From a virus (taxonomy: Duplodnaviria; Caudoviricetes), in IMG/VR virus record IMGVR_UViG_2675903043_000002, positions 35,347 to 99,346 of that record: DNA of 64,000 nucleotides. One strand, given 5' to 3'. This document shows positions 17,458 through 38,195 of the stretch, piece after piece (position 1 is the first letter of the stretch; every line of letters begins with the position of its first letter). A program made the position numbers and the translations under genes. The notes beneath the pieces were generated by a model, which saw nothing but the letters and a program-made list of their open reading frames with translations, did no database searches and was not told the DNA's origin.

Positions 17458-17474
17458 ATTTCTGGAGCTTACAA

Positions 17475-18973: not shown

Positions 18974-19264
18974 ATGAGCAATCAATTCAAGAGGGCCATC
19001 ATTGATGATGTCATCTCGCGTAACATTGACCCCACAGTGCAAGCTAACTTACTTGACATATTTGAGTTGGCTATGAAGTCGGTAGCCACCACCCTGGTGC
19101 GTGAGGCCAAGTTCGACACGTCCGATTTCGCTACCGCCGAAGAGCGAGGCTGCGAGGACTTTTCCTTACTCGTGAGCCGGGTCCGCTCCGACTCCCGTAA
19201 CGAATGGTTCGGCTCGTTTCAGCGGGGCGAGAAGCGCCTCGATGTCATCGGCCACCTCGAGTAG
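18974..19264 (+). CDS. Hypothetical protein at the prophage end
   Basis: 96 aa, RBS GGAG, upstream TTGACT-17-GTTCAT promoter-like motif (18916-18944). Confidence 0.6.
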   Translation: MSNQFKRAIIDDVISRNIDPTVQANLLDIFELAMKSVATTLVREAKFDTSDFATAEERGCEDFSLLVSRVRSDSRNEWFGSFQRGEKRLDVIGHLE

Positions 19265-20266: not shown

Positions 20267-21739
20267 TTACCACAGCCCTAATCCCTGGTAATGCTGCCGT
20301 TTTGTTTCTAATTCCACCGAGTTATTGATCACACGTAAAGCGTGTTTTAAATATCCCACAGCGGCAGAATAGTCTCGCATCTGCTCACAAACTTGGATCA
20401 AGCGGATTAGAACTTGGGGTTTGCTTGGGCACTTTCTATTGATCGCCTCAAGTGCTTCGCGCGCCTCCGGAAAGTTGGCTTCCAAGCCAAATAGGATCGC
20501 GCGCAAGAAATCAAGCTCTAACGATTCTCCATCCTGCCTCTCAGCATCCTGAATGAGATCCTTTGCGGGGTTCATTTTCCGAAGCGTCAGTAACGTCTTA
20601 ATGCCAAGCAGCCGGATCAATTGTTGATCGTTTCCCTGCAAGTCGCTCTTGTATTCTCGATTGAATACTTCTTCGAACTGGAACAGTCTGTTTGCGCGAT
20701 AGAGCGCATTGAGCTGTTGCAACAAAGCAGCAGAGTCGTGGGAGCGGGAAAATTCATCTTCCGCTATTCTTGCCGCCTTTAGGTAGTCCTTTGTCTCCAG
20801 AGCCTCGACAACTGATGTCGACCAATCTACAGAAACTTGTCCACCAAATGATGTTATGGCGTACTGCGGGGAGCTTAATTGATTTTGCCTTGCTAGTTCA
20901 AAAGCAGTGCGGAGAGATGCAATATCGTGGTATCGATCTGAAGGTAATCTTTCCATGCACCTAAGGATCAGCGCATCAACCATCGGTACAATGTTAGCAT
21001 TGATTTCACTGGGGCGCTTAAATGGCGCATGGCGACGCACTTGAGAGGGTGTGTCATGAGGTAGTTGCCCCGTTAGCAACTGGTATAAAAGAACGCCGAG
21101 GCTGTAGATGTCGCCTCGCAGCAAGTCCTCAAAAGTCCCTTTACGAGAGACACTATCGGAAAATTCTGGAGCAGCGTACAGAACTGTGCCGCCGTTTTCC
21201 CTGGTTCGGACATAAATTTCCTCTGGAAGAGCGGAGCTTCCAAAGTCAGTCAACTTCACCAAATCACCCGCACCCACAAGAATATTGTGCGGCTTGATGT
21301 CGCCATGCGAAATGGGTGTTGGCAAGGTCGCCAAGAATCCAACGGCGTCGAGCACCTGCGCGTAGATGCTGAACAGTCGCTCAAACGTGTTACCGAAATT
21401 TTGATTCCTTCGCTCCAATTTTTGGGCAAGGCTTTGGCTCGGGAAATACTCCATTTCGATGAAGAACCATTCGTTCTCCGGAGGAATTCTCCCCATATTG
21501 CAAATCCGAACAATATTGGGATGAGGATCTATTGTGAGTAGTTCTTTCCCCTCGGCAAGTAGGCGATCATCTTTTGTCAGGTCTTTAGGTATCTTCACCG
21601 CGACGATGGTGCTGTCTGACAGTCTCTCCGCCCGCCATACCCAACCATGACTGCCGTCACCGAGGCATTCGAGCAAGAGATACCTATCGCCTAAGCGCTT
21701 ATTGGTTCCCGGCAGAAAGTGTGCGGACTTAATATTCAC
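20267..21739 (-). CDS. Hanks-type Ser/Thr protein kinase with C-terminal TPR-like repeats
   Basis: LGDGSHG, VAVK, HGDIKPHN, DFG, YAAPE, DIYSLG; helical C-terminus. Confidence 0.92.
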   Translation of the reverse strand: MNIKSAHFLPGTNKRLGDRYLLLECLGDGSHGWVWRAERLSDSTIVAVKIPKDLTKDDRLLAEGKELLTIDPHPNIVRICNMGRIPPENEWFFIEMEYFPSQSLAQKLERRNQNFGNTFERLFSIYAQVLDAVGFLATLPTPISHGDIKPHNILVGAGDLVKLTDFGSSALPEEIYVRTRENGGTVLYAAPEFSDSVSRKGTFEDLLRGDIYSLGVLLYQLLTGQLPHDTPSQVRRHAPFKRPSEINANIVPMVDALILRCMERLPSDRYHDIASLRTAFELARQNQLSSPQYAITSFGGQVSVDWSTSVVEALETKDYLKAARIAEDEFSRSHDSAALLQQLNALYRANRLFQFEEVFNREYKSDLQGNDQQLIRLLGIKTLLTLRKMNPAKDLIQDAERQDGESLELDFLRAILFGLEANFPEAREALEAINRKCPSKPQVLIRLIQVCEQMRDYSAAVGYLKHALRVINNSVELETKRQHYQGLGLW

Positions 21740-22314
21740 ATCAACCTCTCACACCGAATCTGTTTGAGAAGCAGAGTTCCGCTGCGTTCAATCTCAAAAA
21801 TAAACCGGCTAAACAGAACAGCTGTATTTCGTATTGCTGGCACCTGCGCTCCAACCGACGATTTGAAGCCTTGTCGACATCGCTGCAGAAACACATCTTT
21901 ATTCGGCGCAGAGACAACCCCTTTGCTCCATGCCGAAAGAATCAGCACTGTAGGAGCATCTCCCCACCTCATGGATGCCTCAAGTAGATTGCAAAGCTTC
22001 TCGTCGAGTTTTTTTTGTCCTCGATCGGTGCCATCGAAGCGTTCGAACTCAATCAATGCATCAGGCGTGCGCTGCGTTCGACTAAACCAGGTTGAGTCGG
22101 AACGAATGTCCGCACCATGCGTCATCGGCACTGGACACTCTGCTACCGCCATAAAGCCAAGCTCAGATCCAAGCTCATTCCAGGCACTGCAACCCAAGCT
22201 GTGAATTAAGACATCCTCGTCGCGAACACCCCAGCTAGACAGCATGGGGTAGCTGCGATCGATAAACTCCAGTGAGGACATTTCGGCACAAATGCGCCCT
22301 GTGAGGTCAGTCAC
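21736..22314 (-). CDS. Putative PD-(D/E)xK-fold nuclease
   Basis: AE...IRSDSTW...ALIEFER; likely GTG start at 22314 overlapping the HerA stop. Confidence 0.55.
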   Translation of the reverse strand: MTDLTGRICAEMSSLEFIDRSYPMLSSWGVRDEDVLIHSLGCSAWNELGSELGFMAVAECPVPMTHGADIRSDSTWFSRTQRTPDALIEFERFDGTDRGQKKLDEKLCNLLEASMRWGDAPTVLILSAWSKGVVSAPNKDVFLQRCRQGFKSSVGAQVPAIRNTAVLFSRFIFEIERSGTLLLKQIRCERLM

Positions 22315-23992
22315 CAAAGCGCCCCCAAACTCGCAGCACCTCGGGCGATTCACCACCGTGTATCAGTGCCTTGTCACCAACTTTAACCAGGAGTGGAGCA
22401 GGAATAGATCGCCCACATACCAAAGCCTCACCCGTTGACAGATTAGGTAACTCGTCCAAGTCAGCCTTGCTTACCATGTCAGACGCTTTTGCGATAAAGC
22501 GCTGGTCGTCCGGGTTCTTCAGTCGCATGGTGATCAGAGTGTTGCACTGTGATGTCACGTCCGCGTCCAGCTTTGATGGACGCTGGCTAACAATAGCAAA
22601 GCCCACTCCGAATTTCCGACCTTCGCCAGCAATTTTCTTGATGATCCGGTGGCTGACCGCATTTCCACCGGCAGGAGCAAAATTATGTCCTTCCTCATAA
22701 ACCAGGAAACAAGGCCGCAATGGATCTGTCTTGCTGGATGCTGCGCGCAAAATCTCACTGGAAAGTAGCGCGCAGATCACCTGTTTGGCCGTATCGCTCA
22801 GCCCTTGCAGATCGATCACAACGAGACGCCCCTGTTTATTCGAAGGGCGTCCGACCATTTTGTAAATATCGGTCGGGGCTGACATAGCCGCAGAGTAGAA
22901 GCTTTGCGCCTCGTTGAGCACTCGCGACAACTTCATCGAAATCACCGCAGCACTGCGGCCATTCAATGCTTTGCCTTCTGCTTCAGAAAGATCATCCCAT
23001 TCGCGCAACTCTTCGATGCCATCTCCGAGAAAATGTCGAAGGCGATTGATATCTCGTGGCTCGGTCTTGTCTGCTGTCCGCCAGTATCGCAACGCAACAT
23101 CAACCACACGCTGCTGTGGCTCGGTCAGCCCGGGGAGAATCTCTGCCACATCATCCATTTCAAAGTGATCGAACTGCAGCGCAAGCTGGGCGTTCTTGCC
23201 AGCGTACTTGTGCTTGAACGATTCATTTTGTGGTGTGTAAACATGGATACCAGCCCCGGCTTGCTGCAATCGTTCCAAGGTATCGCGGATTTTTGGAAGC
23301 GCAGTACGATCGCGTCCGTCTTCACTTTCTGACAGACCTCCCGAGAAATTCAATTGCCCCTTCTCCAGGGCTCTTCCATACTCACCATGCGGATCGAATA
23401 CAATAACGGTTCCATTGTTCAGTGCCACTAAGCGTTCAATGATGCGGCCGACGGTGTAGGACTTACCCGATCCCGTCATCGCTAGAACTGCCATATGCTC
23501 AGTGACCAGTTTGTTTACTTCTAAAAAGACCGGCACCGTATTATCGCCACGCTCATACCCAACGAGATTCCCTAGATGCAAACTGGTGTGTTCGTTGAAT
23601 TCGTAGAAATCGCTTAAAAATTGAAAGTCCACTGTTTCAACGGCGGCGCCGGGATCGAGCGGGCGGCGTGGAATTTTTATCTGACGAGACACTGGATCGC
23701 GGTAACCGACCAGTTCGACATTTGCATAGAGATTCTCGCCGGTAACACTGGCGCCCGGGAGTAGCTCGAGTTCAGTCACGCCACCACCGAATCCAGCGTT
23801 GAACAGCATGTTGGTTCGAGTAATCCTAGTGACTCGCCCAAGCACAGGCACCACGCTTTCATCCGCGCGCTCCTGGTGCATGATGCGGACAAACTCTCCT
23901 CGACGTACGGAAAAGGAATCCTGAACCACCATCGTCAGCTGTGCTGCGTCACCGGTGTTGCCAACCAGCTTTCCAAGTACCTTGTGTTTCAT
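22307..23992 (-). CDS. herA: HerA/FtsK-family ATPase with N-terminal HAS barrel
   Basis: HMAVLAMTGSGKS, VFDPHGEY, LVYEEGH, EGRKFG, SQRPS. Confidence 0.9.
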   Translation of the reverse strand: MKHKVLGKLVGNTGDAAQLTMVVQDSFSVRRGEFVRIMHQERADESVVPVLGRVTRITRTNMLFNAGFGGGVTELELLPGASVTGENLYANVELVGYRDPVSRQIKIPRRPLDPGAAVETVDFQFLSDFYEFNEHTSLHLGNLVGYERGDNTVPVFLEVNKLVTEHMAVLAMTGSGKSYTVGRIIERLVALNNGTVIVFDPHGEYGRALEKGQLNFSGGLSESEDGRDRTALPKIRDTLERLQQAGAGIHVYTPQNESFKHKYAGKNAQLALQFDHFEMDDVAEILPGLTEPQQRVVDVALRYWRTADKTEPRDINRLRHFLGDGIEELREWDDLSEAEGKALNGRSAAVISMKLSRVLNEAQSFYSAAMSAPTDIYKMVGRPSNKQGRLVVIDLQGLSDTAKQVICALLSSEILRAASSKTDPLRPCFLVYEEGHNFAPAGGNAVSHRIIKKIAGEGRKFGVGFAIVSQRPSKLDADVTSQCNTLITMRLKNPDDQRFIAKASDMVSKADLDELPNLSTGEALVCGRSIPAPLLVKVGDKALIHGGESPEVLRVWGRFGD

Positions 23993-25131
23993 GATTCAAA
24001 CCCTTCATCGAGACCGGACAACCACGTGCTTTCTATGTCGTTACTCCGCAGTGCTTCATTTAGCCCCTGCTGATAGTAGGCAGAGAACTTTTCGAGAATA
24101 TTGAGTTGCTGCCGACTTAGCAGCTGTGGCAGTGGCATTGCTTTCTTCTGGCTTTGCATATCCAGAATCATCAGTCGGGATGCCACGGTATCCAGCAAGG
24201 CAGAGTTCCAATCGGACTCTTCGCCAGCCAACTGAGCCATTTTTATTTGACTTGCGCGCGCGCTGCGGAAGTGAAAACCGATAACACCTTGGCTTACTTC
24301 GCTGGCGGGTTCCATTCGGGAGCGATTCTCGGTCATCCGAAAAGCGATAGTTCGAGTGAAGTTACCCAATATGCCATTGATAAAACGAGTATCGCCAATT
24401 CCGCTCAGCCGCTCTTCCAGTCCTTCGAGCATGGCTGCCGAGTCCGGTGCAAAACCATCGTTAGCCAAAATATGCTTGCGACCTCCTTCAGTGCGCAAAT
24501 CTTGTCGAGCGATGCTGACAATGGCAGAGAATCGCTCAGCCAGAATGCTGACTAACACAGGACCTTCCGAATTCCATGGAAACAAGGCTTTCCGGTTATT
24601 CTGCCAAAACTGTTCGATAATGTCCCTGGTCTTTTCAAACTCAGCCCAGTGCCGCATATTCCGCTTTAATGGCACCATTTCCCGATCGATGAATAGCGGG
24701 GTATCGATAAGAATTAGGTTGGCAAAACCATTCTGTTGCAGCAGTCGCTCTACCAGGGCATAACAGTGCCGCATCTCCACTAAGTCCAGACGTTTTCTCT
24801 GCGCTTCGAAATCGATGTCGTCCAGCTCGGATACTGAATCAGACCCAGCAGTACTGATCTTATTGTCCTGAATCGTTAGATCTGTCCGTACAGCTGCAGA
24901 TGCGTAGATAAAGCCACCCAAAGCACGGTGAATACATGAGTAACTCGCAATACCGGAGACCGCGAGATTGACGACGGATGGTCGCTTGATGGCCTTAATT
25001 AAACCGGCATCCCGAAACAAGGGTGCCACTTGCTCAATATCCCGAATCTGTTTGAGTAAGCGACCAGCACTGCCAGGCAATCTTAACTGACTATCGATAG
25101 CCAATGCTTGCGCAAGATTAGTTGTTTTCAT
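23989..25131 (-). CDS. NurA-like protein (catalytic residues look degenerate)
   Basis: Coupled to HerA; LILIDTPL matches NurA motif II, but AVSG replaces AVDG and the C-terminal MPLPQLLS lacks the His. Confidence 0.6.
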   Translation of the reverse strand: MKTTNLAQALAIDSQLRLPGSAGRLLKQIRDIEQVAPLFRDAGLIKAIKRPSVVNLAVSGIASYSCIHRALGGFIYASAAVRTDLTIQDNKISTAGSDSVSELDDIDFEAQRKRLDLVEMRHCYALVERLLQQNGFANLILIDTPLFIDREMVPLKRNMRHWAEFEKTRDIIEQFWQNNRKALFPWNSEGPVLVSILAERFSAIVSIARQDLRTEGGRKHILANDGFAPDSAAMLEGLEERLSGIGDTRFINGILGNFTRTIAFRMTENRSRMEPASEVSQGVIGFHFRSARASQIKMAQLAGEESDWNSALLDTVASRLMILDMQSQKKAMPLPQLLSRQQLNILEKFSAYYQQGLNEALRSNDIESTWLSGLDEGFES

Positions 25132-25134
25132 TGG

Positions 25135-25959
25135 CTAGGCCTCATTCCTCAAATTTTCGGCAAATGCCCAGTATTTACACCCCATCAAGTGGGCCAACCC
25201 CTGTTCGGTCAATCCATTGTCATTTATCAACCCAGCATTTCTTAGGCGAACCATGCTTTCCGGCAGATCGAAGTTGGCCAAATTCAATAGTGGAACGGCA
25301 TATGTCTTCAACCTGCTCAGCAAGCCCTCAGCTGTCGCGACATTGAATCCGTAGCTGCACACCAACACGGTGACATCCTCTGGGCGTATCGCGTCTTCTT
25401 GGGGCTTTGTTTCTTCAGTAGTAACAGATGGCAGGCCACAATGTCGCTCAATCTTGGCCAGGAAGTCATGCACCAGCGCCGCCTGATCTAACAAACTAAT
25501 GGACCAAAGCGGTAGTGTCGTGGCAGCGATCAGGCCGCTATTGGAATGTCCCTTCCAGTATCGTGTATGGCAAGTCGGCTCCCCCAGCGGCATATCCTCT
25601 GTGCAAGCACCGTTTACCCCGCGCAGGCGGTACGTCAGTTCGCCCTCCAGCATGCTCATAAGCAGTGCTCGTTTGACGGCTACCGCAATTGACGGTGCCA
25701 ACTCAACCACCCAGTCCAGAAAATGAAAAATGCTCCCTTCCTGGTATGGGGGGAGTAGCAGTAATGAACAACCGGGTTGGCGTACCCACGCCGCACACTC
25801 CTCCTGAGATTCTCTCGATGCTTGCAACTGCTCGCCGGTCATCAAAACAAAGCCGGTCTGCGGTAAGCCATGCTCGGGCGACTGGGAGATCCCCAGCAAG
25901 CTGGCCAGGAAACGCCCTCTACGGTGCGCCTGCAATTCCGGAGTGAGATAGAGCTTCAC
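25135..25959 (-). CDS. Hypothetical protein (possible C-terminal winged helix)
   Basis: Coupled GTGA start; ...RLRNAGLINDNGLTEQG. Confidence 0.7.
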   Translation of the reverse strand: MKLYLTPELQAHRRGRFLASLLGISQSPEHGLPQTGFVLMTGEQLQASRESQEECAAWVRQPGCSLLLLPPYQEGSIFHFLDWVVELAPSIAVAVKRALLMSMLEGELTYRLRGVNGACTEDMPLGEPTCHTRYWKGHSNSGLIAATTLPLWSISLLDQAALVHDFLAKIERHCGLPSVTTEETKPQEDAIRPEDVTVLVCSYGFNVATAEGLLSRLKTYAVPLLNLANFDLPESMVRLRNAGLINDNGLTEQGLAHLMGCKYWAFAENLRNEA

Positions 25960-28900: not shown

Positions 28901-30242
28901 GAGCATCAAATGGCATCTTGCGATACAGGCTGGCGACCGGTTCACCATCCTCATTGGCCAGCTGTAATAGCTCTTTGCACCGCGCGGGTGCGGCATCAAG
29001 TGCTACAGGCAGTTGGCCGTACAGCAGCGACTGCGCGACGGCACGCAGATCGTGATCACCAGTCTTGATGCCCTCGATAGCGTGCTTGTCCAGCACATGC
29101 TCAGCGACACGGCCAGAGCTCTCAACGACAGCATCGAACAGCACGCCCAAGTCGGTGACTTGCTTGCCCGCTGCTGCGTACTCGGCCAGCACCGCATCCA
29201 TATTGGCCATGACCACGTTGAACCAACCAAAGTTGGCACCGCTCATGGCATAGGCGGCTTCCACCAGCCCCATGGGGTAATCGTGTGCCAACTTGCGCTC
29301 AGCCTTGAGCTGGGCCACATAGTCAGACACATCCGCAAACGCGTTGTGTTCCAACTCCACCAGCTCAAAACGGCGTGCGACTGATTGAATCTCGCGCAAC
29401 TGCTGGCCCAGTAAGGGCGAGCACAAGGCCACATAACGCAGCCAAGGCAGCTTGCGTCGCGGGTCCTCTTCCTTGATGGCCTTACCGATTAGGCGGATGG
29501 CCTGGCCGTCCAGTCGCTTGGCATCGTCTTGCTCCAGACCAAAGGTGGCCGCCTCGGCCACGGTTTCCAGCTCGTCCAACACCACCAGCACATAGCCGAT
29601 GCCAATCTTTTGTAAATAGCTGTAGGCGGCCTGCACCAAGCGCACCACCAAACCCTCTTCTTCGTAGAGAGCCCCCTCAGAGTGAGCCTGATCCAACTCC
29701 AGGCATTGCGTCAGGTGCTTGGGATCAAAACCCGCCGGATTCAAACGATGCAGCGCCTGCTCGGCAATCTTGCTTTGGATCGAACCATCAAACTTGCCCG
29801 TCGCCAGCGGCAACAGTGCCCTGTAAAGCCCAAAGCCAAACCAGTTGTCCGAGTTCTGGTAGTCGGAGGCAACTTGCGAATAGCGGATGTACAGTGCCAA
29901 GTACTTATCTTGCGTAGCCTGATCAAACAGCTTTTTGTCTTCCAGCTGCCCGCCGTCTTCGCGCACAAACCAGCCTTTGGAGCAATCGTTGATCTGGGCG
30001 ATCAACTCATGGCCCAGGCGCGATTTACCGCGCCCCCATTCCGCCTCGACCGCAAACACATGGGCAAAGTTGTCCGCATCCTGATCCACGGTGTGGATGA
30101 AGGTGCGGTAGCGCTTGAAGAAGCGGCTCTGGCCAACCAGCGGGTCACGCGGGGGATAGTCGGAAACACCGGTGGCCGCCCAACTGTGGCGACGGGCCAA
30201 GCCGGCAATATCGGCGGCGGTAAGCTGATCGTTTTTATTCAT
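25956..30242 (-). CDS. Large P-loop ATPase (~1428 aa) with helical/coiled-coil C-terminus
   Basis: Likely start ATG 30242 (ATGA overlap); Walker A AEWGRGKS, Walker B VLVVLDELE. Confidence 0.85.
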   Translation of the reverse strand: MNKNDQLTAADIAGLARRHSWAATGVSDYPPRDPLVGQSRFFKRYRTFIHTVDQDADNFAHVFAVEAEWGRGKSRLGHELIAQINDCSKGWFVREDGGQLEDKKLFDQATQDKYLALYIRYSQVASDYQNSDNWFGFGLYRALLPLATGKFDGSIQSKIAEQALHRLNPAGFDPKHLTQCLELDQAHSEGALYEEEGLVVRLVQAAYSYLQKIGIGYVLVVLDELETVAEAATFGLEQDDAKRLDGQAIRLIGKAIKEEDPRRKLPWLRYVALCSPLLGQQLREIQSVARRFELVELEHNAFADVSDYVAQLKAERKLAHDYPMGLVEAAYAMSGANFGWFNVVMANMDAVLAEYAAAGKQVTDLGVLFDAVVESSGRVAEHVLDKHAIEGIKTGDHDLRAVAQSLLYGQLPVALDAAPARCKELLQLANEDGEPVASLYRKMPFDALQCRQALEEAKFKRERDEWLYPAVEQALSLSALLQNLRTFAINEAEKDVLLLPLSRGEFKHLLSLLYDHPAVEFAADALWQKLIGSDQFVPDEEATHIGPSVAMLLRLDLRYRNQQHNSMIFRDPADADVHEAAMKTFLQASSHNPCLRWTARLMGLMRLLDKNWQYAQPSLSNKENLCIQASSRGQGTGQRGGLLYCEGLKLHPDNLAWFAWVNNRDELDRLHQLAATRHTNEGRFPVMAFTASTHLMEQYNRGDVSEKLKDDLLLYYLNPSEVDQLERIGLTPEQCKGFSLDEARLTSKFKNKLNALRDFAYQAIHQWRARLNERGLIAWPLRPTGKINTQDRDLLLQAWTLFVFKKPTLSGLNDLETRHGIDAEEIASLMQRLALPSKLLSLGFAKEEHAGLFADLANPQQAQAKFPYFLARIANPVSTQEWTLEKAKRGWYWGYLQHASVTAKNVFDDWMWWCGELHLLQLQDATATTAKWQSLPRAKLDNAINEAQNWFNGNSADGYKAVVAKLERVFGYDRIPGLFAPLGKSPTGTETVEAHELIKAARSAFDALKVNEEALALQGADALAAITDKMPALLAGRFEVLQRVAGVKPEQVPEITLGNINTLRLDDKSLSLYQRIEQARLFADYVEKAASQIKQGINHLITDIEADAQNLDMFPRSLFTLSLQTVNNILDGALQQRNESDTATAEGTASSDTLLHYLRSLQLDKAADRLRLLAEEAGVNIDNGTALGLTENLGHIASSYRVGKKKFVEITGYLAELKARCAEAARVLEPMPAGYTTPEHTQELAALAQKLVLIGDAFEDLADLAKSEREKFREQARKGQFSAIRGIPDRLLNPIHSQLHSVGGAISKVENTILSHRETLVSQTNERYLPVLTPLFGACNETVPAAINLASVSALSLHDLQITIDMQQSQWENKANQLLSGTGLDFASWQDLATAIAEGKNPALSPPAQEALVAKGILRMKLYFGGNA

Positions 30243-31564
30243 GCAATGCCCCCTCCCTGAACCACGTACTCCGCCTCCGGTTCGCGGACGGAACGATGTT
30301 GATAGACTTGTTTGTGCTCCTGATACAGCGCCTCGGCAGAGAGGCGTGCGGCCTGCCACAGCAACTTTCCCGTGCGGTTGAACACGCGGCTCGCGGGCAG
30401 GCTGTAACACTGATCAGAGAACTGCGGATGAATCTGGTACTGGCCCAGTTGGCTGCTGGCCCCGTCCTGATAACGCCAGACCGAGTGCTTGAGCAACAAG
30501 CCCACCAGCGGCGACAGTTGCGCATTCAATTCTGCAGCTGTGGGCTGCTGCGGAAAGCAGGCCACGCCCAGCCTTGCCAGCATGCCCAGCAGCAGATCCG
30601 CCAGAGTGCCACAGTGTACCTCGTCGCCTTCTGCGCCGATCACCGTGACGGCAATTTCAGTGGGCGCAAAAGCATTCTGGCCTGCAGGCAGTTCCAGCAG
30701 CAAACCGCCCCGGTTTTCTGCCCGCCATGCATCCTGCGCAAATGCCAGCATGGCCAGCAGCAGCGCCCAAGGCTGGGCCAACACCCAAGGCATTACGGTC
30801 TGGCCTTCGGTGATGGCGGGCGTTATGCCACCCTGCAAGAGCACTTGTTCGGCGGCTTTTGTGATTGCGTTTGCAGACTTTTGATCGTGCGTGGCGGCCT
30901 CAACCACAAAGGGCAAGGCCAACAGTCGCCCCTTGACCCAGTTCTGCTGCGCATCGACGCCACTGGCGTCCACCTTGGGCAAGGGGGGTAGTGCATCCTG
31001 AAACGCTGCCAACTGGGCGGCGACAAACAGAATGCGCACCAGCGCAGGCGTTGCTGCCGCCTGCTCAAAGCTTACCCCCAGCAATTCCCGTTCAATCGCA
31101 GCGTAGGAGCTGGCAGCAAGTGCGCTACTTTCCAAGGCTGCTTCCACCCACGCAGCGGCTGGCCCCAAGCCAGATACCAACTCGACTAGCGGCGCAGAGT
31201 TGTTCCCCTGAGCCGCCATCTGCCCCGCCTCTTTGCAGCGTGCAGCGGCAATCGCCAGCCACGCAACACGCACCTCCGTCTGCCGTGTCAAGAGGGCACA
31301 AAGCAGCTCGGCGTCAGACACCAAGACAGGACGCACGGCCAATAAACGCTGGCTGATGATCCAGCCCGCGCTGTTGCCTAGGTGATCCAGCGCACCCTTG
31401 CTATCTCCTTGGTCGCCAGCCTCATCCGCCCCAAGCGGGTGGGCCAGGCAGCGCACCAGCACCGCACCATCGCACTCATAGTCCACGGCACCCATAAAGC
31501 CCGTCGTGAGCAAGGCTCGCAAGCGCGGGATCAAGGCAACTAAAGTGGCATGGGGGCTGGCCAT
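30239..31564 (-). CDS. Hypothetical protein of the defense-like operon
   Basis: Ala/Leu-rich ~441 aa, coupled at both ends. Confidence 0.75.
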   Translation of the reverse strand: MASPHATLVALIPRLRALLTTGFMGAVDYECDGAVLVRCLAHPLGADEAGDQGDSKGALDHLGNSAGWIISQRLLAVRPVLVSDAELLCALLTRQTEVRVAWLAIAAARCKEAGQMAAQGNNSAPLVELVSGLGPAAAWVEAALESSALAASSYAAIERELLGVSFEQAAATPALVRILFVAAQLAAFQDALPPLPKVDASGVDAQQNWVKGRLLALPFVVEAATHDQKSANAITKAAEQVLLQGGITPAITEGQTVMPWVLAQPWALLLAMLAFAQDAWRAENRGGLLLELPAGQNAFAPTEIAVTVIGAEGDEVHCGTLADLLLGMLARLGVACFPQQPTAAELNAQLSPLVGLLLKHSVWRYQDGASSQLGQYQIHPQFSDQCYSLPASRVFNRTGKLLWQAARLSAEALYQEHKQVYQHRSVREPEAEYVVQGGGIA

Positions 31565-33084
31565 CAATCCCCCTCGGCTTGCGTCAGCAAGTGGTAAAGC
31601 TCATCCAGGTCGCCAAACAGCGCTGCCCCTTGGCCATCAATGCCATCGGTCTTCAGGCGATTCAGGATGCGGCGATCGAGCTGATCGTTACTCGCTTGTA
31701 GTGCTTGCTCGGCCGCGATCAGCTCGGCTTCAGTGATAAGGCCTTCGATCAGGGCTTCGACAAGGTATTTGGCTGTTGTCGTTAACGATTTCGATGCACG
31801 AATTGCGCTTTCTTGCTCGGTAACCAAAGCCAGAATCTGTTCCTTTGCATCCAGAACAAATTGAGGAATCGGTAATGCGAGAAGCTCATCCTGCCCAATC
31901 TGGGGCTGAACAGCGCCGTAGCTGATCTTGTGTTGCAGGACTTTTCCGGCGGTTGAACACAAGTACGCAGCGACAGCCGCTGCATCCGCTTCGTCCGGAA
32001 ATTCCAGACGGATCAAATGACTGCTAATTACTGCGCCTCGGTCTCGCTCATCTACTTTGATCGCGGTACCAATTGAGCCAGTACGAACAACCAGCGCGCA
32101 ACGCTCGTGAATGATTGCCTTGTCGGGGACTTCCGTCGTATGAGAAATTTTGGGGGCGGACGACATATCCATGCGACCCGACGAAACCTCGGTAACAGTG
32201 ATGTAGTTACGCCCAGTATTAAAAAAGACTCGCTCCTCAATCCCGTTTGCGATTCCTTTAACCAGACTAGACAGCGGCTTACCAAGCGCTTTTGCTTGCC
32301 GGAAAACGGCAACCGCGCGATTGCCGTAATACTTTGGATCAAGCCTGTGACTGAGGTCGTCCAGCTGTGGGCGGTTGTGCAGTTTTTCAGTCGTTGCACA
32401 TGCGGACTTCATTGCCTCATTTGAGGCCAGTGACTCTACCTCCGCTCCTCGCACCTTCCCCCAAGCCCGCAGCCGCTCAGCTTGGCGGACTTTGTCGCCG
32501 ATGAATTTTTGCACATCGGAATTAGCTACAAATAGAGGAATGGAATAAAGCGCATCCTTGGCTATGTAGTTGATGATTGTGTTGCTTGTGAGTCGATTTT
32601 TCAGTACCTGACCATGCTTTGATCTCAAAAATGCCAGCACGTAACGTGAATTCGTATCGGCATTGAAAGATGCTTTGTAAAGCGAGCCACTAACCATCAG
32701 GTATTTGGGAAATATCTCCGGAACAACGCCAACCTTTGAGACATTGCCCTTTACCTCTATCAGCAACTCACCTGCTACAGCCAATCCTTTTGGATAGTCG
32801 TCTTTGTAGTAAAGCGGCAATTTATCGACGGAGCTGAAATCGATGCTCCCTTGATCATCGATTTGTGTTGGAGAGAGGAATGGCAAGAGTTTCTCTTCGG
32901 CAATGCCATTTATGGAATCGGTGCCGTGATAAACCACGCGATATCCGTCAGCAATAAGCTGTCCGAGTCGCTTTGTTTTTCCAAGTCCATCAATTTTTTG
33001 CACTGTTTTCAGCGCTTCCGGGTTGTAGAACTCGGCATCGAGCCGGTCTTCAAGTTGCGAGTGGATGCGCACGGTATACATCAC
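31564..33084 (-). CDS. Type I HsdS-like specificity subunit
   Basis: Two TRD-like halves, each opened by RLD(A/P)(E/K)(F/Y)Y; YGAVQPQIGQDELLALPIP; coiled spacers. Confidence 0.85.
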   Translation of the reverse strand: MMYTVRIHSQLEDRLDAEFYNPEALKTVQKIDGLGKTKRLGQLIADGYRVVYHGTDSINGIAEEKLLPFLSPTQIDDQGSIDFSSVDKLPLYYKDDYPKGLAVAGELLIEVKGNVSKVGVVPEIFPKYLMVSGSLYKASFNADTNSRYVLAFLRSKHGQVLKNRLTSNTIINYIAKDALYSIPLFVANSDVQKFIGDKVRQAERLRAWGKVRGAEVESLASNEAMKSACATTEKLHNRPQLDDLSHRLDPKYYGNRAVAVFRQAKALGKPLSSLVKGIANGIEERVFFNTGRNYITVTEVSSGRMDMSSAPKISHTTEVPDKAIIHERCALVVRTGSIGTAIKVDERDRGAVISSHLIRLEFPDEADAAAVAAYLCSTAGKVLQHKISYGAVQPQIGQDELLALPIPQFVLDAKEQILALVTEQESAIRASKSLTTTAKYLVEALIEGLITEAELIAAEQALQASNDQLDRRILNRLKTDGIDGQGAALFGDLDELYHLLTQAEGD

Positions 33085-35207
33085 TCACCCCGCTTATAAG
33101 CGCCAACAATCTTGTCGAGATCATTCGGCACGCCAGTCGAGTAGTCCTCGATATTGTTTTTCACCACATAGCCCAGCGTTTCTGCCACCGCCATGAATAC
33201 ATCACCTTGTGGCTCAGGCAAGAACTGCTCGGGGTGCTCTTTGCTGGCATGGCGTTTTTGCAGATACAGCACCGAGGTCTTGGCCCCGGTGCCAGAGAGC
33301 TTGAAGGTGTTCGCCGGTAGCGACAGCACCGCCTTGACGATGGCCTTGCCGCCGACAAACTGGCCGGTTTTTTCGTCTTTGCTGCCCATGATGTATTCGC
33401 GCACATAGCGGTCGCCGGAGTTACACAGCACACCATCGGGCAACACAATCAGCAAACGGCCACCGGGGCGCAGCAGTTGCAGGCAGCGGTCAATAAACAG
33501 TACGGCCGGGTCAATGGTGGCACCTACCGGCTTCCAGTTGCTTTTGCCATCGGGCTTGCTGCCCAAGGCCAGGCCACTGGTGGTGGGGAACAGGTTGTAG
33601 ACCGCCTTTTTGCCGGTGGAAACATTGCGCAAATCGGTGCGGTAGCCTGGCCACTTGGGCGCGCCATCTTCGTCCAGGTATAGATCGCCAGTGTCTTCCC
33701 ACTTCATTTTAAGGTAGTCGTAATAGGCCACGTACTCATCGACTACTTTTTCCGTGGGGCGGAAGCCGCCGAGCACTTGCTCCATCTGGGCTTCGTAGCG
33801 CTCTTTGGATTCCTTGCCTTTCTTGTCGCTGGTGAACTTGGGCGTACCAAACGGCGGGTTGGTGCAGATAAGGTCAAAGCTGTTCGGCTTGAACGCCTTG
33901 GTAGTGAGCGAGTTGTCCGTATAGAAAATTTTGGCCTTGGGCGCGCCTTGCAGGGCCATGTTGACGCGGGCCAGCATCACCATGCGCGGGGCCGTGTCGG
34001 CACCGGTGAAGGCGGTGTCGCGCAGGGTTTGCTTGAGCGCTTTCTTCTGCGCATCGCTCATGCCGCCCAGGTGATCGACCACATTCTCGATATGGCTGAG
34101 CGCGACTGAGCCAAAACCAAATGAACCACAGGTAGGGTCGCAAAAGCGGAAGGCACCAGAAGTCAGCCTTTCCATAGCGGCGTTGTCTTGCTGGATGTCG
34201 TGAATGGCGATTTCCAGCATGGCCTGCTTGACCGGGTTGGGCGTGAGGTACACACCCAGGCCGCCTTTGGATTCAAAGTTGGCGCGCAGGAACACATCGA
34301 ACACCCGGCCCAGCAAATCGCCCGCCACATCGGCCAAAGTGCCGACTTCTTTACCGGCGATCATGCGCCCTTGGTTGTCAGTCACTGGCCCAAGGTCTTG
34401 CATCGCCTCTAGCAAGGTGCGGTAGTTTTCCGGCTGAGTTAAGCGCAGGTGTGAATCGCTTGGGAAGATGGCATTGCGGGTACCGTCGTCGCTGACCACC
34501 ACATAATCTTCGTGCGCTTTGAAGGCTTCGAATGCGGCCTTGATTTGCTCCACAGCCTTGGCACCGTGCTTGGCCACATAGTGATGGTCAAACACCTCGC
34601 GAAAGCGCTGGGTCTTGCCTTCGTGGTCAGTAAAGCTGAGTTCAATGCCGTGATGGACACGGAAGGTTTCCAGGAACAGCAGCTTGGCCACTTCCTCGAT
34701 GATGTCGTTCTTGTCGTTGACGCGATCTTTGACAGTCTGAAAAACCTGCTCGTGGAAGGCGTCAAAGCGGTGCATCAAGCGGGTGTAGATACGCATCGAC
34801 CAGCGGAAGGTCGGGTCTTTTTCCAGCTTTTCGTAGTTGCGGATCAGCTCGATGGAAGGCACTTCATCCACCGAATGGGTGCCGTCACTGCCATCGACAC
34901 CAAACAGGCTATAGCAGCGGGTATTTTTGTCATCTTGAAGATGGGCAAATACGGGCCAATCCCCGCTGACGCTGGCGAGCAGTTCATAAGCCAGTTGATC
35001 CAGCTTGTCTTCGCGGGAATAGTCCCAGTGCCCCGGTTCCAGTGCAATCAACAAAACCGATGGGGTCTGATTGCCTTGGTCTTCCCCCCAGATCAGCCCG
35101 GCTTTCACGAAGTCATGATCGCTATTGAGCAGAGCGAGTTCGGTGTAGTCGCGGTACTTACTGCGAATTTCTTGGTAGCGTTGATCCAACGTTTGTTCGG
35201 TTGCCAT
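33081..35207 (-). CDS. N6-adenine DNA methyltransferase (HsdM-like)
   Basis: GVYLTP, FCDPTCGSFGF (motif I), CTNPPFG (motif IV), LLRPGGRLLIVLPDG. Confidence 0.93.
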   Translation of the reverse strand: MATEQTLDQRYQEIRSKYRDYTELALLNSDHDFVKAGLIWGEDQGNQTPSVLLIALEPGHWDYSREDKLDQLAYELLASVSGDWPVFAHLQDDKNTRCYSLFGVDGSDGTHSVDEVPSIELIRNYEKLEKDPTFRWSMRIYTRLMHRFDAFHEQVFQTVKDRVNDKNDIIEEVAKLLFLETFRVHHGIELSFTDHEGKTQRFREVFDHHYVAKHGAKAVEQIKAAFEAFKAHEDYVVVSDDGTRNAIFPSDSHLRLTQPENYRTLLEAMQDLGPVTDNQGRMIAGKEVGTLADVAGDLLGRVFDVFLRANFESKGGLGVYLTPNPVKQAMLEIAIHDIQQDNAAMERLTSGAFRFCDPTCGSFGFGSVALSHIENVVDHLGGMSDAQKKALKQTLRDTAFTGADTAPRMVMLARVNMALQGAPKAKIFYTDNSLTTKAFKPNSFDLICTNPPFGTPKFTSDKKGKESKERYEAQMEQVLGGFRPTEKVVDEYVAYYDYLKMKWEDTGDLYLDEDGAPKWPGYRTDLRNVSTGKKAVYNLFPTTSGLALGSKPDGKSNWKPVGATIDPAVLFIDRCLQLLRPGGRLLIVLPDGVLCNSGDRYVREYIMGSKDEKTGQFVGGKAIVKAVLSLPANTFKLSGTGAKTSVLYLQKRHASKEHPEQFLPEPQGDVFMAVAETLGYVVKNNIEDYSTGVPNDLDKIVGAYKRGE

Positions 35208-35234
35208 GAGTTCGTGTATCCGGTTCTTATTCGT

Positions 35235-35633
35235 TTAAGCCAACTTCAGCAGTGGACCTTTCAATTCGAGCCGCGCATCCTGCCCGGCCGCACTGCGCAG
35301 CATGGGTTCGGTTACCACCATGCCAGCCGGCAGTTTGATGATGAGTTGCGCCAAGGGCATGGGTCGGCCAGTCTTTTGCAGCAGCGCCACCAATTCGTCA
35401 GCCAGGCTGGATGTTGCTTGGCCTCGCTCTTCATTCAGTGCCCAGGCTGCTTCACCGCTGGGTAATTCACAGCGCAGCAAGGCCGGCGTGCAGGCCAGCC
35501 ATAGACTCAGCTGCGCGAGATTCCAACCCAACTGATGCCATTGCGTGGCATGGTCCGCCCACAACTGATCCAGCGTTATCGGCCCGGTTTTCATGCTGCG
35601 CCGAACGGTGGCCAACACATCAGGTGTATTCAA
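35235..35633 (-). CDS. Small hypothetical protein (possible HTH)
   Basis: TTG start with GGAGG RBS overlapping the upstream stop. Confidence 0.65.
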   Translation of the reverse strand: MNTPDVLATVRRSMKTGPITLDQLWADHATQWHQLGWNLAQLSLWLACTPALLRCELPSGEAAWALNEERGQATSSLADELVALLQKTGRPMPLAQLIIKLPAGMVVTEPMLRSAAGQDARLELKGPLLKLA

Positions 35634-35890
35634 GCTGGCCCTCCGACGGTTGGGTGTGGCATCGGTGCCCGATAACCCGGCGCAAGCGTTGCGTTTGCCA
35701 CGCTATACAAGGCCAACGTATCACAACAGAGTCGATACTCGTGGCCGCGCAGGCTGTGGTATGCCGAGCAGTTGACCCTCCATTTGCGCAGGATATAACC
35801 GGAAGTAACTGCACACAGATTCATCCGCAGCACTCCATCGCGCATCAAGTAGTCCATCTCTGTAATCCTAGATCTGAGCTGATCCTGGCA
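35630..35890 (-). pseudogene. 3' remnant of a WYL-domain regulator (CapW/BrxR-like)
   Basis: ITEMDY.MRDGVLRM...GYILRKW.V.CS..HSLRGHEYRL...LY.V.NA.LAPGY resembles the C-terminal domain of CapW/BrxR; HTH and WYL domains are missing. Confidence 0.7.
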
Positions 35891-37648: not shown

Positions 37649-37650
37649 GA

Positions 37651-38121: not shown

Positions 38122-38195
38122 GATGGGTCCTCCTTAATAGATGATGATGCCGATAGTATAAAACACTCATTTGACTAACCAAAATGTGAGGAGAT

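What the first reader, a model, noticed from the sequence alone, without database searches (positions are those of the whole stretch)
20267..35633. Candidate new anti-phage system: MTase + HsdS without HsdR, coupled to a giant ATPase, NurA-HerA, a nuclease and a Ser/Thr kinase
Seen: ten same-strand ORFs, most overlapping by ATGA/GTGA/TGATG or separated by a few bases. Order: 132 aa, N6-MTase (DPTCG, NPPF), two-TRD HsdS, 442 aa, ~1428-aa ATPase, 274 aa, NurA-like, HerA, PD-(D/E)xK-like, kinase-TPR. Known: type I RM needs HsdR, BREX needs PglZ, Wadjet needs an SMC protein, and DISARM needs its DrmA/B helicase pair; none is here. MADS combines an MTase, an HsdS-like subunit, a kinase and an ATPase, but I do not recall it having HerA/NurA. 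The HerA defense systems I know (Sir2-HerA, DUF4297-HerA) are two-gene systems without an MTase. Inference: M+S mark self, the large ATPase and HerA motor replace HsdR as translocase, and the kinase gates the effector or triggers abortive infection. It may be a new system or a distant MADS relative.
Basis: partly seen in the sequence, partly recalled or inferred. Interest (0 to 1): 0.93.

Follow-up and report, generated by a model that had tools for sequence, protein, structure and literature searches.

The report
Untested "MADS-like" ten-gene methylation defence operon
This is a real, tightly packed ten-gene operon that joins a DNA-marking methylase to a HerA-NurA DNA motor, a giant BrxC-like ATPase, a small nuclease and a protein kinase; it is widespread, experimentally untested, and was probably already flagged in 2023 as the "MADS-like" candidate phage-defence system.

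Summary
Ten intact minus-strand ORFs lie at 20267-35633, and seven of nine junctions overlap. Of 52 related loci with enough flank, 49 keep genes 2-10 in the same order across many phyla.

New here: the 380-aa unknown has a NurA fold (Z 11.4). The giant ATPase is an ORC/Cdc6-clade AAA+ whose longest solved match is BREX BrxC. HsdS is hypervariable beside a conserved methylase.

It is not canonical MADS. MAD7, the DndH-like MAD8 and MAD3/4 are absent, and MAD2/5/6 matches fall far below cut-offs.

It is also not a first sighting. The MADS preprint names an untested 11-gene "MADS-like" system in P. aeruginosa. Earlier agents of this scan equated that system with this operon on other DNA. I could not verify the gene content because the supplements were closed.

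Best reading: one methylation-guided anti-phage/plasmid system. NCBI gives it no system name, though it occurs in about 4% of complete E. coli genomes. It is interesting but only moderately novel.

The parts
35633..35884 (-). Remnant (last 85 residues) of a WYL-domain regulator gene that heads the operon in relatives; the N-terminal part is replaced by AT-rich DNA
   Evidence: tblastn with the 320-aa WYL protein of L001 (Pfam WYL 6.2e-12) matches the window at 35884-35633 only, residues 236-320, 73% identity. Full copies lie upstream in L001, L005, L009, L012 and L034.
35235..35633 (-). Gene 1, 132 aa, small conserved protein of unknown function (possibly winged-helix)
   Evidence: Only a sub-threshold Pfam hit, WH_Egal E 0.0035. 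tblastn finds it in 40 of 52 loci with enough flank.
33081..35207 (-). Gene 2, 708-aa HsdM-family N6-adenine DNA methyltransferase
   Evidence: PADLOC MTase_I PDLC03023 E=0 over the full length; mad2 2.9e-20. Pfam N6_Mtase 2.1e-22. NCBIfam MAD2 114 bits against a cut-off of 720. NPPF in 51 of 51 relatives.
31564..33084 (-). Gene 3, 506-aa two-TRD HsdS specificity subunit, hypervariable
   Evidence: PADLOC Specificity_I 5.5e-64, residues 6-503; mad5 2.3e-11. Identity to relatives is 24-64% while the adjacent methylase is 51-96%.
30239..31567 (-). Gene 4, 442 aa, unknown, ATGA-coupled to the giant ATPase
   Evidence: No Pfam, PADLOC, NCBIfam or PDB sequence match. Present in all 52 loci with enough flank except L059.
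25956..30242 (-). Gene 5, 1428-aa giant: N-terminal ORC/Cdc6-clade AAA+ ATPase (BrxC-like) plus a long helical/coiled C-terminal part
   Evidence: AF2 model of residues 1-620, pLDDT 68. VIA: Cdc6/ORC Z 9.2-8.5; BrxC 9zll_A Z 8.6 with 325 residues aligned. The top six Foldseek rows are all BrxC, best E 4.5e-3. Walker A in 57/57 and Walker B in 53/57 by my patterns. The family has only 161 representatives among 1.84 billion proteins.
25135..25959 (-). Gene 6, 274 aa, unknown
   Evidence: Weak DUF4350 hits in 5 of 22 members, best E 0.0018; nothing else.
23989..25131 (-). Gene 7, 380-aa NurA-fold protein with a non-canonical first acidic motif
   Evidence: AF2 pLDDT 63. The top five VIA rows are all NurA-type: 2ygk_B Z 11.4, 9x1l_G 8.1, 8wet_G 7.5, 7f6d_G 7.4, 1zup_B 7.0. 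Foldseek 2ygk_A E 2.2e-3. The position where NurA has xDGS reads S/A/T-G in 22 of 22 aligned sequences.
22307..23992 (-). Gene 8, 561-aa HerA hexameric-translocase-type ATPase
   Evidence: Pfam DUF87 4.2e-44 and HAS-barrel 0.0014. NCBIfam helicase_HerA 1.3e-57. It is the most conserved gene, at 72-96% identity.
21736..22314 (-). Gene 9, about 192-aa probable PD-(D/E)xK-type nuclease (candidate effector)
   Evidence: Invariant E73, D83, R85, D87, E103-F-E105-R106 and K120 in 16 sequences. EFER in 47/47. The nearest named Atlas clusters are MunI (0.85) and PDDEXK_11 (0.81), which are leads only. No Pfam or PDB sequence hit.
20267..21739 (-). Gene 10, 490-aa Hanks-type Ser/Thr kinase with a helical TPR-like tail
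   Evidence: Pfam Pkinase 6.5e-29; TPR_14 5e-4, below cut-off. PADLOC mad6 6.8e-41 and PD-T4-6 3.6e-39. HxDxKPxN in 55/55 and DFG in 54/55.

Best explanation
A single, horizontally mobile, methylation-based anti-phage/anti-plasmid system. It is very probably the untested 'MADS-like' candidate of Maestri et al. It is built from modules that occur separately in type I R-M, BREX, HerA-NurA/Tdp and MADS.

Proposed working, with my odds for each step:
1. The HsdM-type methylase and the hypervariable two-TRD HsdS form a type-I-like M2S complex that m6A-marks a bipartite host motif (about 0.8).
2. Unmarked foreign sites, read by the same complex, are handed to the BrxC/ORC-like AAA+ giant. With genes 4 and 6 it acts as an ATP-dependent loader or licensing scaffold in place of HsdR (about 0.45).
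3. The HerA hexamer, capped by the NurA-fold protein, translocates or unwinds the DNA (about 0.6).
4. Cutting is done mainly by the small PD-(D/E)xK-like gene 9, because the NurA-like protein lacks the usual first acidic residue (about 0.4).
5. The kinase-TPR protein regulates the machine or triggers a back-up abortive response, as proposed for PglW and MAD6 (about 0.4).

Shown here: the gene set, the folds of genes 5 and 7, motif conservation, linkage and mobility. Inferred: every activity and every contact.
For: Unit: seven of nine junctions overlap. 49 of 52 loci with enough flank keep genes 2-10 colinear, across Pseudomonadota, Planctomycetota, Desulfobacterota, Fibrobacter, Sumerlaeota and others.

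Modification: MTase_I E=0, Specificity_I 5.5e-64, NPPF in 51/51. HsdS diverges while its neighbours stay conserved: L001 methylase 94% / HsdS 56% / gene 4 81%; L009 95% / 37%; L003 91% / 31%. This is the pattern of specificity switching.

Motors: gene 5 has an ORC/Cdc6-BrxC fold with Walker A in 57/57. HerA is 72-96% identical.

NurA fold: Z 11.4, with the top five rows all NurA-type, including the Tdp restriction complex 8wet_G.

Defence context: a WYL regulator sits upstream in 5 loci and survives as a remnant here. In E. coli AR_452, McrBC is spliced onto the front of the operon, in a tRNA-Leu/integrase island beside a PT-dependent endonuclease. L004 has an integrase plus DUF3987 island, and L005 has a PIN toxin inserted.

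Mobility: found in 1 of 121 species of its genus and 1 of 400 scored genomes of its class, the one being the own genome in both, yet 91-96% identical to Pseudomonas and Massilia copies. GC is 0.55-0.60 at 26-32 kb of the operon (0.49-0.60 across it) against 0.40-0.47 at 36-38 and 40-52 kb; the flank at 1-20 kb is 0.51-0.54.

Prior naming: 'MADS-like', 11 genes with an N6-methyltransferase. Pseudomonas locus L001 has the WYL gene plus ten genes, which makes 11.
Against: No experiment, methylome or RNA data bear on it. No RNA run was listed.

The related loci were found through gene 5, so the 49/52 figure is conditional on gene 5. In complete E. coli genomes the NurA-HerA pair is in 252 genomes, but gene 5 in 210 and the methylase in 218. 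Strain 165 keeps genes 6-10 with only pseudogene scraps of the front half, and L059 is similar. The back half can therefore persist alone, at least as a decaying form.

Both fold models are of middling confidence (pLDDT 63 and 68). For gene 5, BrxC ties with Cdc6/ORC on Z, and Foldseek E-values are weak.

The nuclease nature of gene 9 rests on a motif pattern and sub-0.9 Atlas leads. Genes 1, 4 and 6 have no assignment at all.

In the window the native regulator and probably the native promoter are gone, so this copy may be silent or deregulated.

Identity with 'MADS-like' could not be checked. Its gene content is given only in a figure and in supplements that I could not see.
Confidence: 0.62

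Rival explanations
1. Two independent systems lie side by side. One is an HsdR-less type-I-like modification module (genes 1-6, perhaps with the giant ATPase as its own restriction partner). The other is a self-contained NurA-HerA-nuclease-kinase module (genes 7-10) that senses infection on its own, like the two-gene HerA defence systems.
For: E. coli strain 165 retains genes 6-10 without the methylase, HsdS, gene 4 or gene 5. The NurA-HerA pair is in 252 complete E. coli genomes, against 210 for gene 5 and 218 for the methylase. L059 has a truncated gene 5 and no methylase, HsdS or gene 4. Known HerA defence systems are small (recalled, not tested).
Against: 49 of 52 loci keep both halves colinear across phyla. 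The halves are joined by a 3-nt gap between genes 6 and 7 and by overlaps elsewhere. In strain 165 the front half survives as annotated pseudogene fragments, which points to decay rather than design. No locus was seen with the front half alone, but the loci were ascertained through gene 5.
Confidence: 0.13
2. It is simply a divergent member (subtype) of MADS proper and works like MADS.
For: The best non-generic hits of four proteins are MADS models: mad2 2.9e-20, mad5 2.3e-11, mad6 6.8e-41, mad8 1.1e-26, and MAD2/5/6 in NCBIfam. The preprint says MADS operons vary in completeness and may have subtypes.
Against: All NCBIfam scores are far below their cut-offs: 114/720, 119/400 and 113/460. MAD7, mandatory in the authors' model, is absent: no hit among the ten proteins or in the genome. 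MAD8 in a true MADS locus is an 1813-aa DndH-like giant. NF047742 finds nothing in this genome. No mad3 or mad4 hits. Profiles of genes 5 and 7 show no relation to MAD8, DndH or DndG (hhalign probability 0.2-0.3).
Confidence: 0.04
3. It is not primarily a defence system. It could be a mobile-element maintenance or addiction module, or a DNA-repair/epigenetic-regulation cassette in which HerA-NurA resects DNA ends and the methylase regulates genes.
For: Classical HerA-NurA is a double-strand-break resection machine. The best NCBIfam hit of gene 8 is the repair-type HerA. The operon always rides on islands or prophage borders. In this window it sits between a prophage lysis cassette and umuDC/SRAP/RecD2 repair genes.
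Against: The hypervariable HsdS, the WYL regulator, the spliced McrBC cassette and neighbouring restriction genes, the patchy distribution and cross-phylum transfer at 72-96% HerA identity are the signature of defence systems. An addiction role would not exclude defence.
Confidence: 0.1

Closest known systems
'MADS-like' putative system (madl1-madl11) of Pseudomonas aeruginosa, Maestri et al., bioRxiv 10.1101/2023.03.30.534895 (main-text passages read)
   Same: It is a multi-gene (11) putative defence operon, said to be related to MADS, encoding an N6-methyltransferase and found in P. aeruginosa islands. Near-identical copies of this window's proteins lie on more than 900 P. aeruginosa contigs. 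The Pseudomonas locus L001 has a WYL gene plus ten genes, making 11. Earlier agents of this scan made the same identification.
   Different: Unknown. [quoted passage not shown] It was reported in 10 of 444 pheT-side islands, whereas the copies seen here ride on other islands. It is untested in print as far as my searches reach.
MADS (mad1-mad8), methylation-associated defence system
   Same: An HsdM-type methylase, an HsdS, a Ser/Thr kinase and a HerA/FtsK-type P-loop in one operon, with methylation-based self-marking.
   Different: This operon has no MAD7 (DndG-like), no DndH-like MAD8 giant and no MAD3/MAD4 OLD-type pair (PMC13662399 passages). In their place it has a stand-alone HerA with a NurA-fold partner, a BrxC-like giant, a small nuclease-like protein and three unknowns. 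The gene order also differs.
TdpABC (phosphorothioate-based R-M of extremophiles; TdpAB complex, PDB 8wet)
   Same: A DNA-modification gene combined with a HerA/NurA-type restriction machine. The gene 7 model matches 8wet_G at Z 7.5. Tdp needs only tdpC for modification (PMC12914056 passage).
   Different: The mark here is presumably m6A, made by a type-I-like M+S rather than by phosphorothioation. No Dnd or Ssp model hit the operon. There are seven further genes. That TdpAB is HerA-NurA-like is partly recalled and partly taken from the fold hit.
BREX (BrxC ATPase; PDB 9zll, 9zdx)
   Same: A large ORC/Cdc6-clade AAA+ ATPase of more than 1200 aa in a methylation-based, HsdR-less defence operon. 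BrxC gives the longest aligned solved match (325-333 residues, Z 8.2-8.6; the top six Foldseek rows).
   Different: No PglZ, PglX, BrxL, BrxA or BrxB hits. There is no sequence-level link: the gene 5 family has 161 representatives in the library, and all full-length ones listed (best 150 shown) are 1269-1645 aa. The methylase is HsdM-type with a separate HsdS.
HerA/FtsK-Orc/Cdc6 'capture' systems (Rakesh, Aravind and Krishnan, NAR 2024, PMC10853773; section 22 read)
   Same: [quoted passage not shown]
   Different: The section I read mentions no methylase, HsdS, NurA or Ser/Thr kinase. The hallmark inactive REase inserted in the Orc/Cdc6 protein was not tested here.
Type I restriction-modification
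   Same: An HsdM-family methylase plus a two-TRD HsdS with diversifying TRDs.
   Different: No HsdR in the operon or in the related loci (one weak partial hit in 62). The genome's HsdR-like genes lie on other contigs. The methylase is about 190 aa longer than typical HsdM (typical length recalled).

Membership tests
MADS (mad1-8) | MAD7 present (mandatory in the authors' MacSyFinder model) | tested here: not met
   No PADLOC mad7 or NCBIfam NF047733 hit among the ten proteins at E<=0.01. PDLC04139 finds nothing in the own genome. The gene 7 profile against DndG (a mad7 relative) gives hhalign probability 0.2.
MADS (mad1-8) | MAD8: giant (about 1800 aa) DndH-like protein with a C-terminal HerA/FtsK P-loop | tested here: not met
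   True MAD8 in L068 is 1813 aa. Here HerA is a stand-alone 561-aa protein, 23% identical to the MAD8 C-terminus. NF047742 has no match in the own genome. Gene 5 against MAD8 gives probability 0.3.
MADS (mad1-8) | MAD6 kinase, MAD2 methylase and MAD5 HsdS at equivalog level | tested here: not met
   113 bits against cut-off 460, 114 against 720, and 119 against 400. The likeness is at domain level only.
MADS (mad1-8) | MAD3/MAD4 OLD-type ATPase-Toprim pair | tested here: not met
   No mad3 or mad4 hit for any of the ten proteins.
'MADS-like' (madl1-11) | 11-gene operon with an N6-methyltransferase, related to MADS, in P. aeruginosa islands | tested here: inconclusive
   The main text gives only these features. 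They fit: 10 genes plus a WYL gene in Pseudomonas L001, and copies on more than 900 P. aeruginosa contigs.
Type I R-M | HsdM and HsdS | tested here: met
   MTase_I E=0 and Specificity_I 5.5e-64.
Type I R-M | HsdR translocase-nuclease in the system | tested here: not met
   No REase_I hit in the operon. HsdR-like genes of the genome lie on other contigs. A query with one own-genome HsdR gave one weak partial hit in 62 related loci.
BREX | PglZ and a PglX-type methylase | tested here: not met
   No PglZ or PglX models hit. Only PglW hit, through the kinase domain, at 3.1e-16.
BREX | BrxC ATPase | tested here: inconclusive
   Fold-level likeness only: Z 8.6 and 8.2, tied with Cdc6/ORC, and Foldseek E 4.5e-3. 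There is no sequence link.
HerA-NurA | HerA with a HAS-barrel plus a DUF87 ATPase | tested here: met
   DUF87 4.2e-44; HAS-barrel 0.0014, below cut-off; NF040819 1.3e-57.
HerA-NurA | NurA fold in the adjacent protein | tested here: met
   2ygk_B Z 11.4, rmsd 4.2, 219 residues aligned. The next four rows are also NurA-type. The model's pLDDT is 63.
HerA-NurA | Complete NurA catalytic acidic set | tested here: inconclusive
   The motif I position reads S/A/T-G in 22 of 22 sequences, while D143, E274 and H287 are invariant. The mapping is by sequence pattern, not by superposition, and that stretch of the model has low confidence.
HerA/FtsK-Orc/Cdc6 capture systems | Orc/Cdc6 AAA+ with an inserted inactive REase, plus HerA/FtsK, plus an active REase | tested here: inconclusive
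   The Orc/Cdc6-type fold and HerA are met. The inserted inactive REase was not examined. REase status of gene 9 is a lead only.
TdpABC | Phosphorothioate modification gene | tested here: not met
   No Dnd or Ssp model hit the operon. No Tdp model exists in the libraries used.
DISARM / Wadjet | DrmA/DrmB helicase pair; JetC SMC protein | tested here: not met
   No such PADLOC hits at E<=0.01. In gene 5, Walker A and Walker B lie 150 residues apart, so it is not SMC-type.

The most novel reading that the evidence does not exclude
The operon is not a MADS subtype but a mechanistically distinct class of restriction. In this reading a type-I-like M2S reader licenses an ORC/BrxC-like AAA+ loader. 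The loader installs a HerA hexamer, capped by a catalytically retired NurA, on unmethylated DNA. The HerA motor feeds the DNA to a small PD-(D/E)xK nuclease, and a TPR-kinase acts as checkpoint or suicide switch. This would be a bacterial 'origin-licensing-style' loading of a resection motor used for immunity.
Probability: 0.3. Interest if true: 0.75.

Novelty: new variant of a known kind. Interest (0 to 1): 0.55.

Why it matters
This is one of the larger conserved defence-type operons still without an experiment. It is in about 4% of complete E. coli genomes and on more than 900 P. aeruginosa contigs. It occurs in dozens of genera from several phyla. NCBI annotates most of its genes as 'hypothetical'.

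It combines modules that are normally studied apart: type I modification, a BREX-like AAA+ giant, HerA-NurA resection and a Hanks kinase. Working out how they connect would show how an HsdR-less methylation system finds and destroys foreign DNA, which is still an open question for BREX and MADS.

It also matters practically for phage therapy and plasmid transfer in E. coli and Pseudomonas, because current annotation does not flag it.

Tried and rejected
Canonical MADS, BREX, DISARM, Wadjet, Dnd/Ssp and complete type I R-M were all considered. Each was rejected on missing defining parts.

A relation of genes 5 and 7 to DndH/MAD8 and to DndG was tested by hhalign against single sequences. Nothing was found (probability 0.2-0.3). 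Single-sequence templates make this a weak test.

PDB sequence-profile searches gave the following:
- gene 7: none;
- gene 5: only coiled-coil noise against influenza HA2;
- genes 9 and 4: none;
- gene 6: noise.

Pfam scans of every member of the gene 4, 6 and 9 alignments gave nothing, apart from weak DUF4350 in 5 of 22 gene 6 members.

The ESM Atlas held no structure for gene 5 or gene 9.

Expression: no RNA holder was listed.

Megablast of the left flank against phages and of the operon against plasmids gave no match.

A pheT-side location was sought in Pseudomonas loci L001 and L004, to tie the operon to the island of the preprint. It was not found; L004 instead has an integrase/DUF3987 island.

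Literature:
- HerA + NurA + kinase + methyltransferase + 'defense system' + 'specificity subunit' (at least 5 of 6 terms): 8 papers, none describing this operon.
- HerA + NurA + anti-phage + methyltransferase: 2 irrelevant papers.
- 'MADS-like' + phage: only the preprint, plus one paper that merely cites MADS.
- The Cell Host & Microbe 2024 MADS paper is not held. I know it only from a reference list, and it may say more on 'MADS-like'.
- The supplements of the preprint, which earlier agents cite for the madl gene content, could not be seen and bear directly on the identification.

The promoter and terminator scans gave only consensus matches near shuffle expectation.

Full report
**Observation**

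The region 20267-35633 carries ten intact ORFs on the minus strand. In order of transcription they are:
- gene 1: 132 aa;
- gene 2: a 708-aa methylase with DPTCGS and NPPF;
- gene 3: a 506-aa HsdS;
- gene 4: 442 aa;
- gene 5: a giant protein of 1428 aa from the ATG that overlaps the previous stop;
- gene 6: 274 aa;
- gene 7: 380 aa;
- gene 8: a 561-aa HerA;
- gene 9: a small protein of about 192 aa;
- gene 10: a 490-aa kinase.

Seven of the nine junctions overlap, six by 4 nt and one by 8 nt. The other two are gaps of 27 nt and 3 nt. The exact 1428-aa product is on record elsewhere. Pfam, PADLOC and NCBIfam recognise only four of the ten: the methylase, HsdS, HerA and the kinase. No model for HsdR, PglZ, DrmA/B or an SMC protein hits the operon.

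**Conservation**

A scan of one genome per species with the giant protein returned 62 loci. They come from gamma-, beta- and alphaproteobacteria, Planctomycetota, Desulfobacterota, Fibrobacter, Sumerlaeota, Bdellovibrionota and Terriglobales. tblastn with all ten proteins shows the same order on the same strand.

Of the 52 loci with at least 5.3 kb upstream and 5.8 kb downstream of the giant gene:
- 49 carry genes 2-10 colinear;
- 40 carry all ten; gene 1 is short and divergent and may be missed.

The three exceptions are:
- L022, which is cut by the contig start and carries a roughly 5-kb insertion;
- L047, which has no gene 9 hit;
- L059, which has a truncated giant and no methylase, HsdS or gene 4.

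The ten loci with too little flank are contig fragments, and their hits are also colinear. These loci were found through gene 5, so the figure is conditional on that gene.

HerA is the most conserved gene (72-96% identity). HsdS is the least conserved (24-64%), even where the adjacent methylase is 91-96% identical (L001, L003, L008, L009). That is the pattern expected of switching target-recognition domains.

Catalytic motifs are kept:
- NPPF in 51 of 51 methylases;
- kinase HxDxKPxN in 55 of 55 and DFG in 54 of 55;
- giant-protein Walker A in 57 of 57 and Walker B in 53 of 57;
- HerA Walker B in 57 of 57 and GSGKS in 53 of 57.

The four misses in each case are the same Pirellulaceae-type loci, and they failed my strict patterns rather than being shown defective.

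**The unknowns**

Gene 7. An AlphaFold2 model from a 22-sequence alignment (pLDDT 63) gives NurA of S. solfataricus as the top match in a Foldseek-independent search (Z 11.4, rmsd 4.2, 219 residues). Four further NurA-type chains follow: the T. kodakarensis and D. radiodurans HerA-NurA complexes, the TdpAB complex and TM1739. After them come Argonaute PIWI domains. Foldseek agrees weakly (E 2.2e-3). No sequence method sees this relation. Where NurA has its first acidic motif, all 22 aligned sequences read S/A/T-G, while D143, E274 and H287 are invariant. The protein may therefore be a structural cap rather than the cutter. This mapping is by pattern and lies in a low-confidence part of the model.

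Gene 5. A model of residues 1-620 (pLDDT 68) matches Cdc6/ORC proteins (Z 9.2-8.5), the BREX ATPase BrxC (Z 8.6 and 8.2, with the longest alignments at 325-333 residues) and TnsC. The six best Foldseek rows are all BrxC, with weak E-values from 4.5e-3. Language-model neighbours are AAA_22/ATPase_2/STAND clusters. A profile search of 1.84 billion representative proteins finds only 161 relatives. All full-length ones are 1269-1645 aa, so the family is isolated at sequence level.

Gene 9. It has invariant E73, D83, R85, D87, E103-F-E105-R106 and K120. Its nearest named Atlas clusters are MunI and a PD-(D/E)xK family, at scores that count as leads only.

Genes 1, 4 and 6. They remain unassigned.

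**Relation to MADS**

I fetched a true MADS locus (L068). It has MAD7 at 678 bits, followed by an 1813-aa MAD8. The N-terminus of that MAD8 matches NF047742, and its C-terminus holds a HerA/FtsK-type P-loop that is 23% identical to the window's HerA. PADLOC's mad7 and mad8 models also hit DndG and the C-terminus of DndH in a Dnd locus. MAD7/MAD8 are therefore DndG/DndH-like.

The window has none of this:
- no MAD7 in the operon or the genome;
- no MAD8-type giant;
- no MAD3/4;
- scores for MAD2, MAD5 and MAD6 at one quarter or less of their cut-offs.

The authors' own detection model makes MAD6-8 mandatory. The operon is not a MADS member, although it shares the methylase-HsdS-kinase-HerA-type-P-loop theme.

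**Prior sightings**

A look-up of this scan's earlier reports gave the lead that this operon equals the 'MADS-like' system of the MADS preprint. I checked the main text. It says that manual inspection of a P. aeruginosa defence island revealed a putative 11-gene system, madl1-madl11. It was found in 10 of 444 islands, is related to MADS, and also encodes an N6-methyltransferase. The gene content appears only in a figure and in supplements that I could not open, and the journal version is not held.

Circumstantial support is good. Proteins at least 90% identical to gene 7 and gene 8 lie on more than 900 P. aeruginosa contigs. In the Pseudomonas locus L001 a WYL-domain regulator precedes the ten genes, which makes eleven. 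I put the identification at about 0.8.

A 2025 survey of Pseudomonas islands notes unexplained N-6 methylase and HerA genes near a hotspot bordered by a Ser/Thr kinase in LESGI-1-like islands. This may be the same operon, but I could not test it.

Searches for any experimental study found none.

**Context and spread**

In the window the operon lies between a prophage lysis cassette (fibre protein, GH108 endolysin and holin, 16983-18699) and umuDC-like genes, an SRAP peptidase and a RecD2 helicase. Of the WYL regulator only the last 85 codons survive, and AT-rich DNA with promoter-like sites replaces the rest.

The gene 7 family was found in no other of 120 species of the genus. It was also found in none of 399 other scored genomes sampled from the class; one further genome could not be scored. 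Yet the operon is 90-96% identical in most genes to copies in Pseudomonas and Massilia. Its GC content (0.55-0.60 at 26-32 kb, 0.49-0.60 over the whole operon) exceeds that of the DNA at 36-38 kb and 40-52 kb (0.40-0.47); the prophage-side flank at 1-20 kb is 0.51-0.54, and 38-40 kb is 0.52. It was therefore acquired horizontally.

In complete E. coli genomes:
- the NurA-HerA pair occurs in 252 of 5426;
- gene 5 occurs in 210;
- the methylase occurs in 218.

In E. coli AR_452 the full operon sits in the tRNA-Leu island behind an McrBC cassette whose stop overlaps gene 1. It lies next to a PT-dependent endonuclease and an integrase. Strain 165 has lost the methylase, HsdS, gene 4 and gene 5, and keeps only annotated fragments of them. 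RefSeq names the genes only generically.

Variants seen:
- an extra gene of about 350-380 aa between genes 4 and 5 in a roughly 40%-identity clade (10 loci);
- a PIN-toxin insertion at the same place in L005.

**Mechanism**

I read the operon as one methylation-guided restriction system. M2S marks the host's own DNA and reads unmarked DNA. The BrxC/ORC-like giant, with genes 4 and 6, replaces HsdR as the ATP-driven licensing or loading element. HerA with its NurA-fold cap supplies translocation. Gene 9 is the likeliest cutter. The kinase regulates or provides a back-up abortive response. Only the parts list, two folds, motif conservation and linkage are shown. Every activity and contact is inferred.

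The main rival is two juxtaposed systems. It draws on the E. coli deletion forms, but it is weakened by the overlapping junctions, the cross-phylum colinearity and the pseudogene remains in those forms.

**Verdict**

The finding is real and well read. It is an uncharacterised hybrid that stands apart from every tested system. But it is neither unnamed nor seen here for the first time: a preprint sketched it in 2023, and this scan has already reported it on E. coli DNA. Its interest lies in the mechanism and in its abundance without annotation, rather than in discovery.

Noticed in passing
window 35633-35884 (minus strand): Only the last 85 codons of a WYL-domain regulator gene survive (73% identical to the full 320-aa gene of L001). 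AT-rich DNA with promoter-like sites replaces the rest, so this copy of the operon has lost its usual regulator.
   Followed up: yes
window 19271-20218 (minus strand): A 315-aa ORF with no Pfam family lies directly downstream of the kinase. A 91%-identical copy lies downstream of the operon in L009, and a 71% copy lies upstream on the other strand in L010. It is absent from the other loci. It may be an accessory or neighbouring defence gene.
   Followed up: partly
window 16983-18699: A prophage tail-fibre (Gp80), DUF6127, GH108 endolysin and 3-TM holin cassette abuts the operon. Megablast of 1-19200 found no match among 50,697 phage records.
   Followed up: partly
window 36335-41065: umuC/umuD-like genes (IMS polymerase plus S24 peptidase), an SRAP peptidase and a RecD2-type helicase flank the other side.
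   Followed up: no
L041:8922-9983, L044:8832-9980 and eight more loci: A clade whose proteins are about 40% identical to the window's carries an extra gene of 353-382 aa between genes 4 and 5. It has no counterpart in the window and no Pfam family.
   Followed up: partly
L005, about 9350-9990: A PIN-domain-like toxin ORF, with a small upstream ORF, is inserted between genes 4 and 5. I recognised it by eye from the translation and did not scan it.
   Followed up: no
L075 (E. coli strain 165) and L076 (E. coli AR_452): In E. coli the operon sits in the tRNA-Leu island behind an McrBC cassette whose stop overlaps gene 1. Strain 165 is a deletion form that keeps genes 6-10 and pseudogene scraps of the front half. 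Across complete E. coli genomes the back half is in about 34-42 more genomes than the front half.
   Followed up: partly
PADLOC's mad7 and mad8 models cross-hit DndG (8.5e-38) and the C-terminus of DndH (1.8e-15), which shows that canonical MAD7/MAD8 are DndG/DndH-like.
   Followed up: yes
G000 contig C119, 116423-118517: An HsdR-like gene elsewhere in the genome is split, with one TGA inside the match. It may be a broken type I restriction subunit.
   Followed up: no
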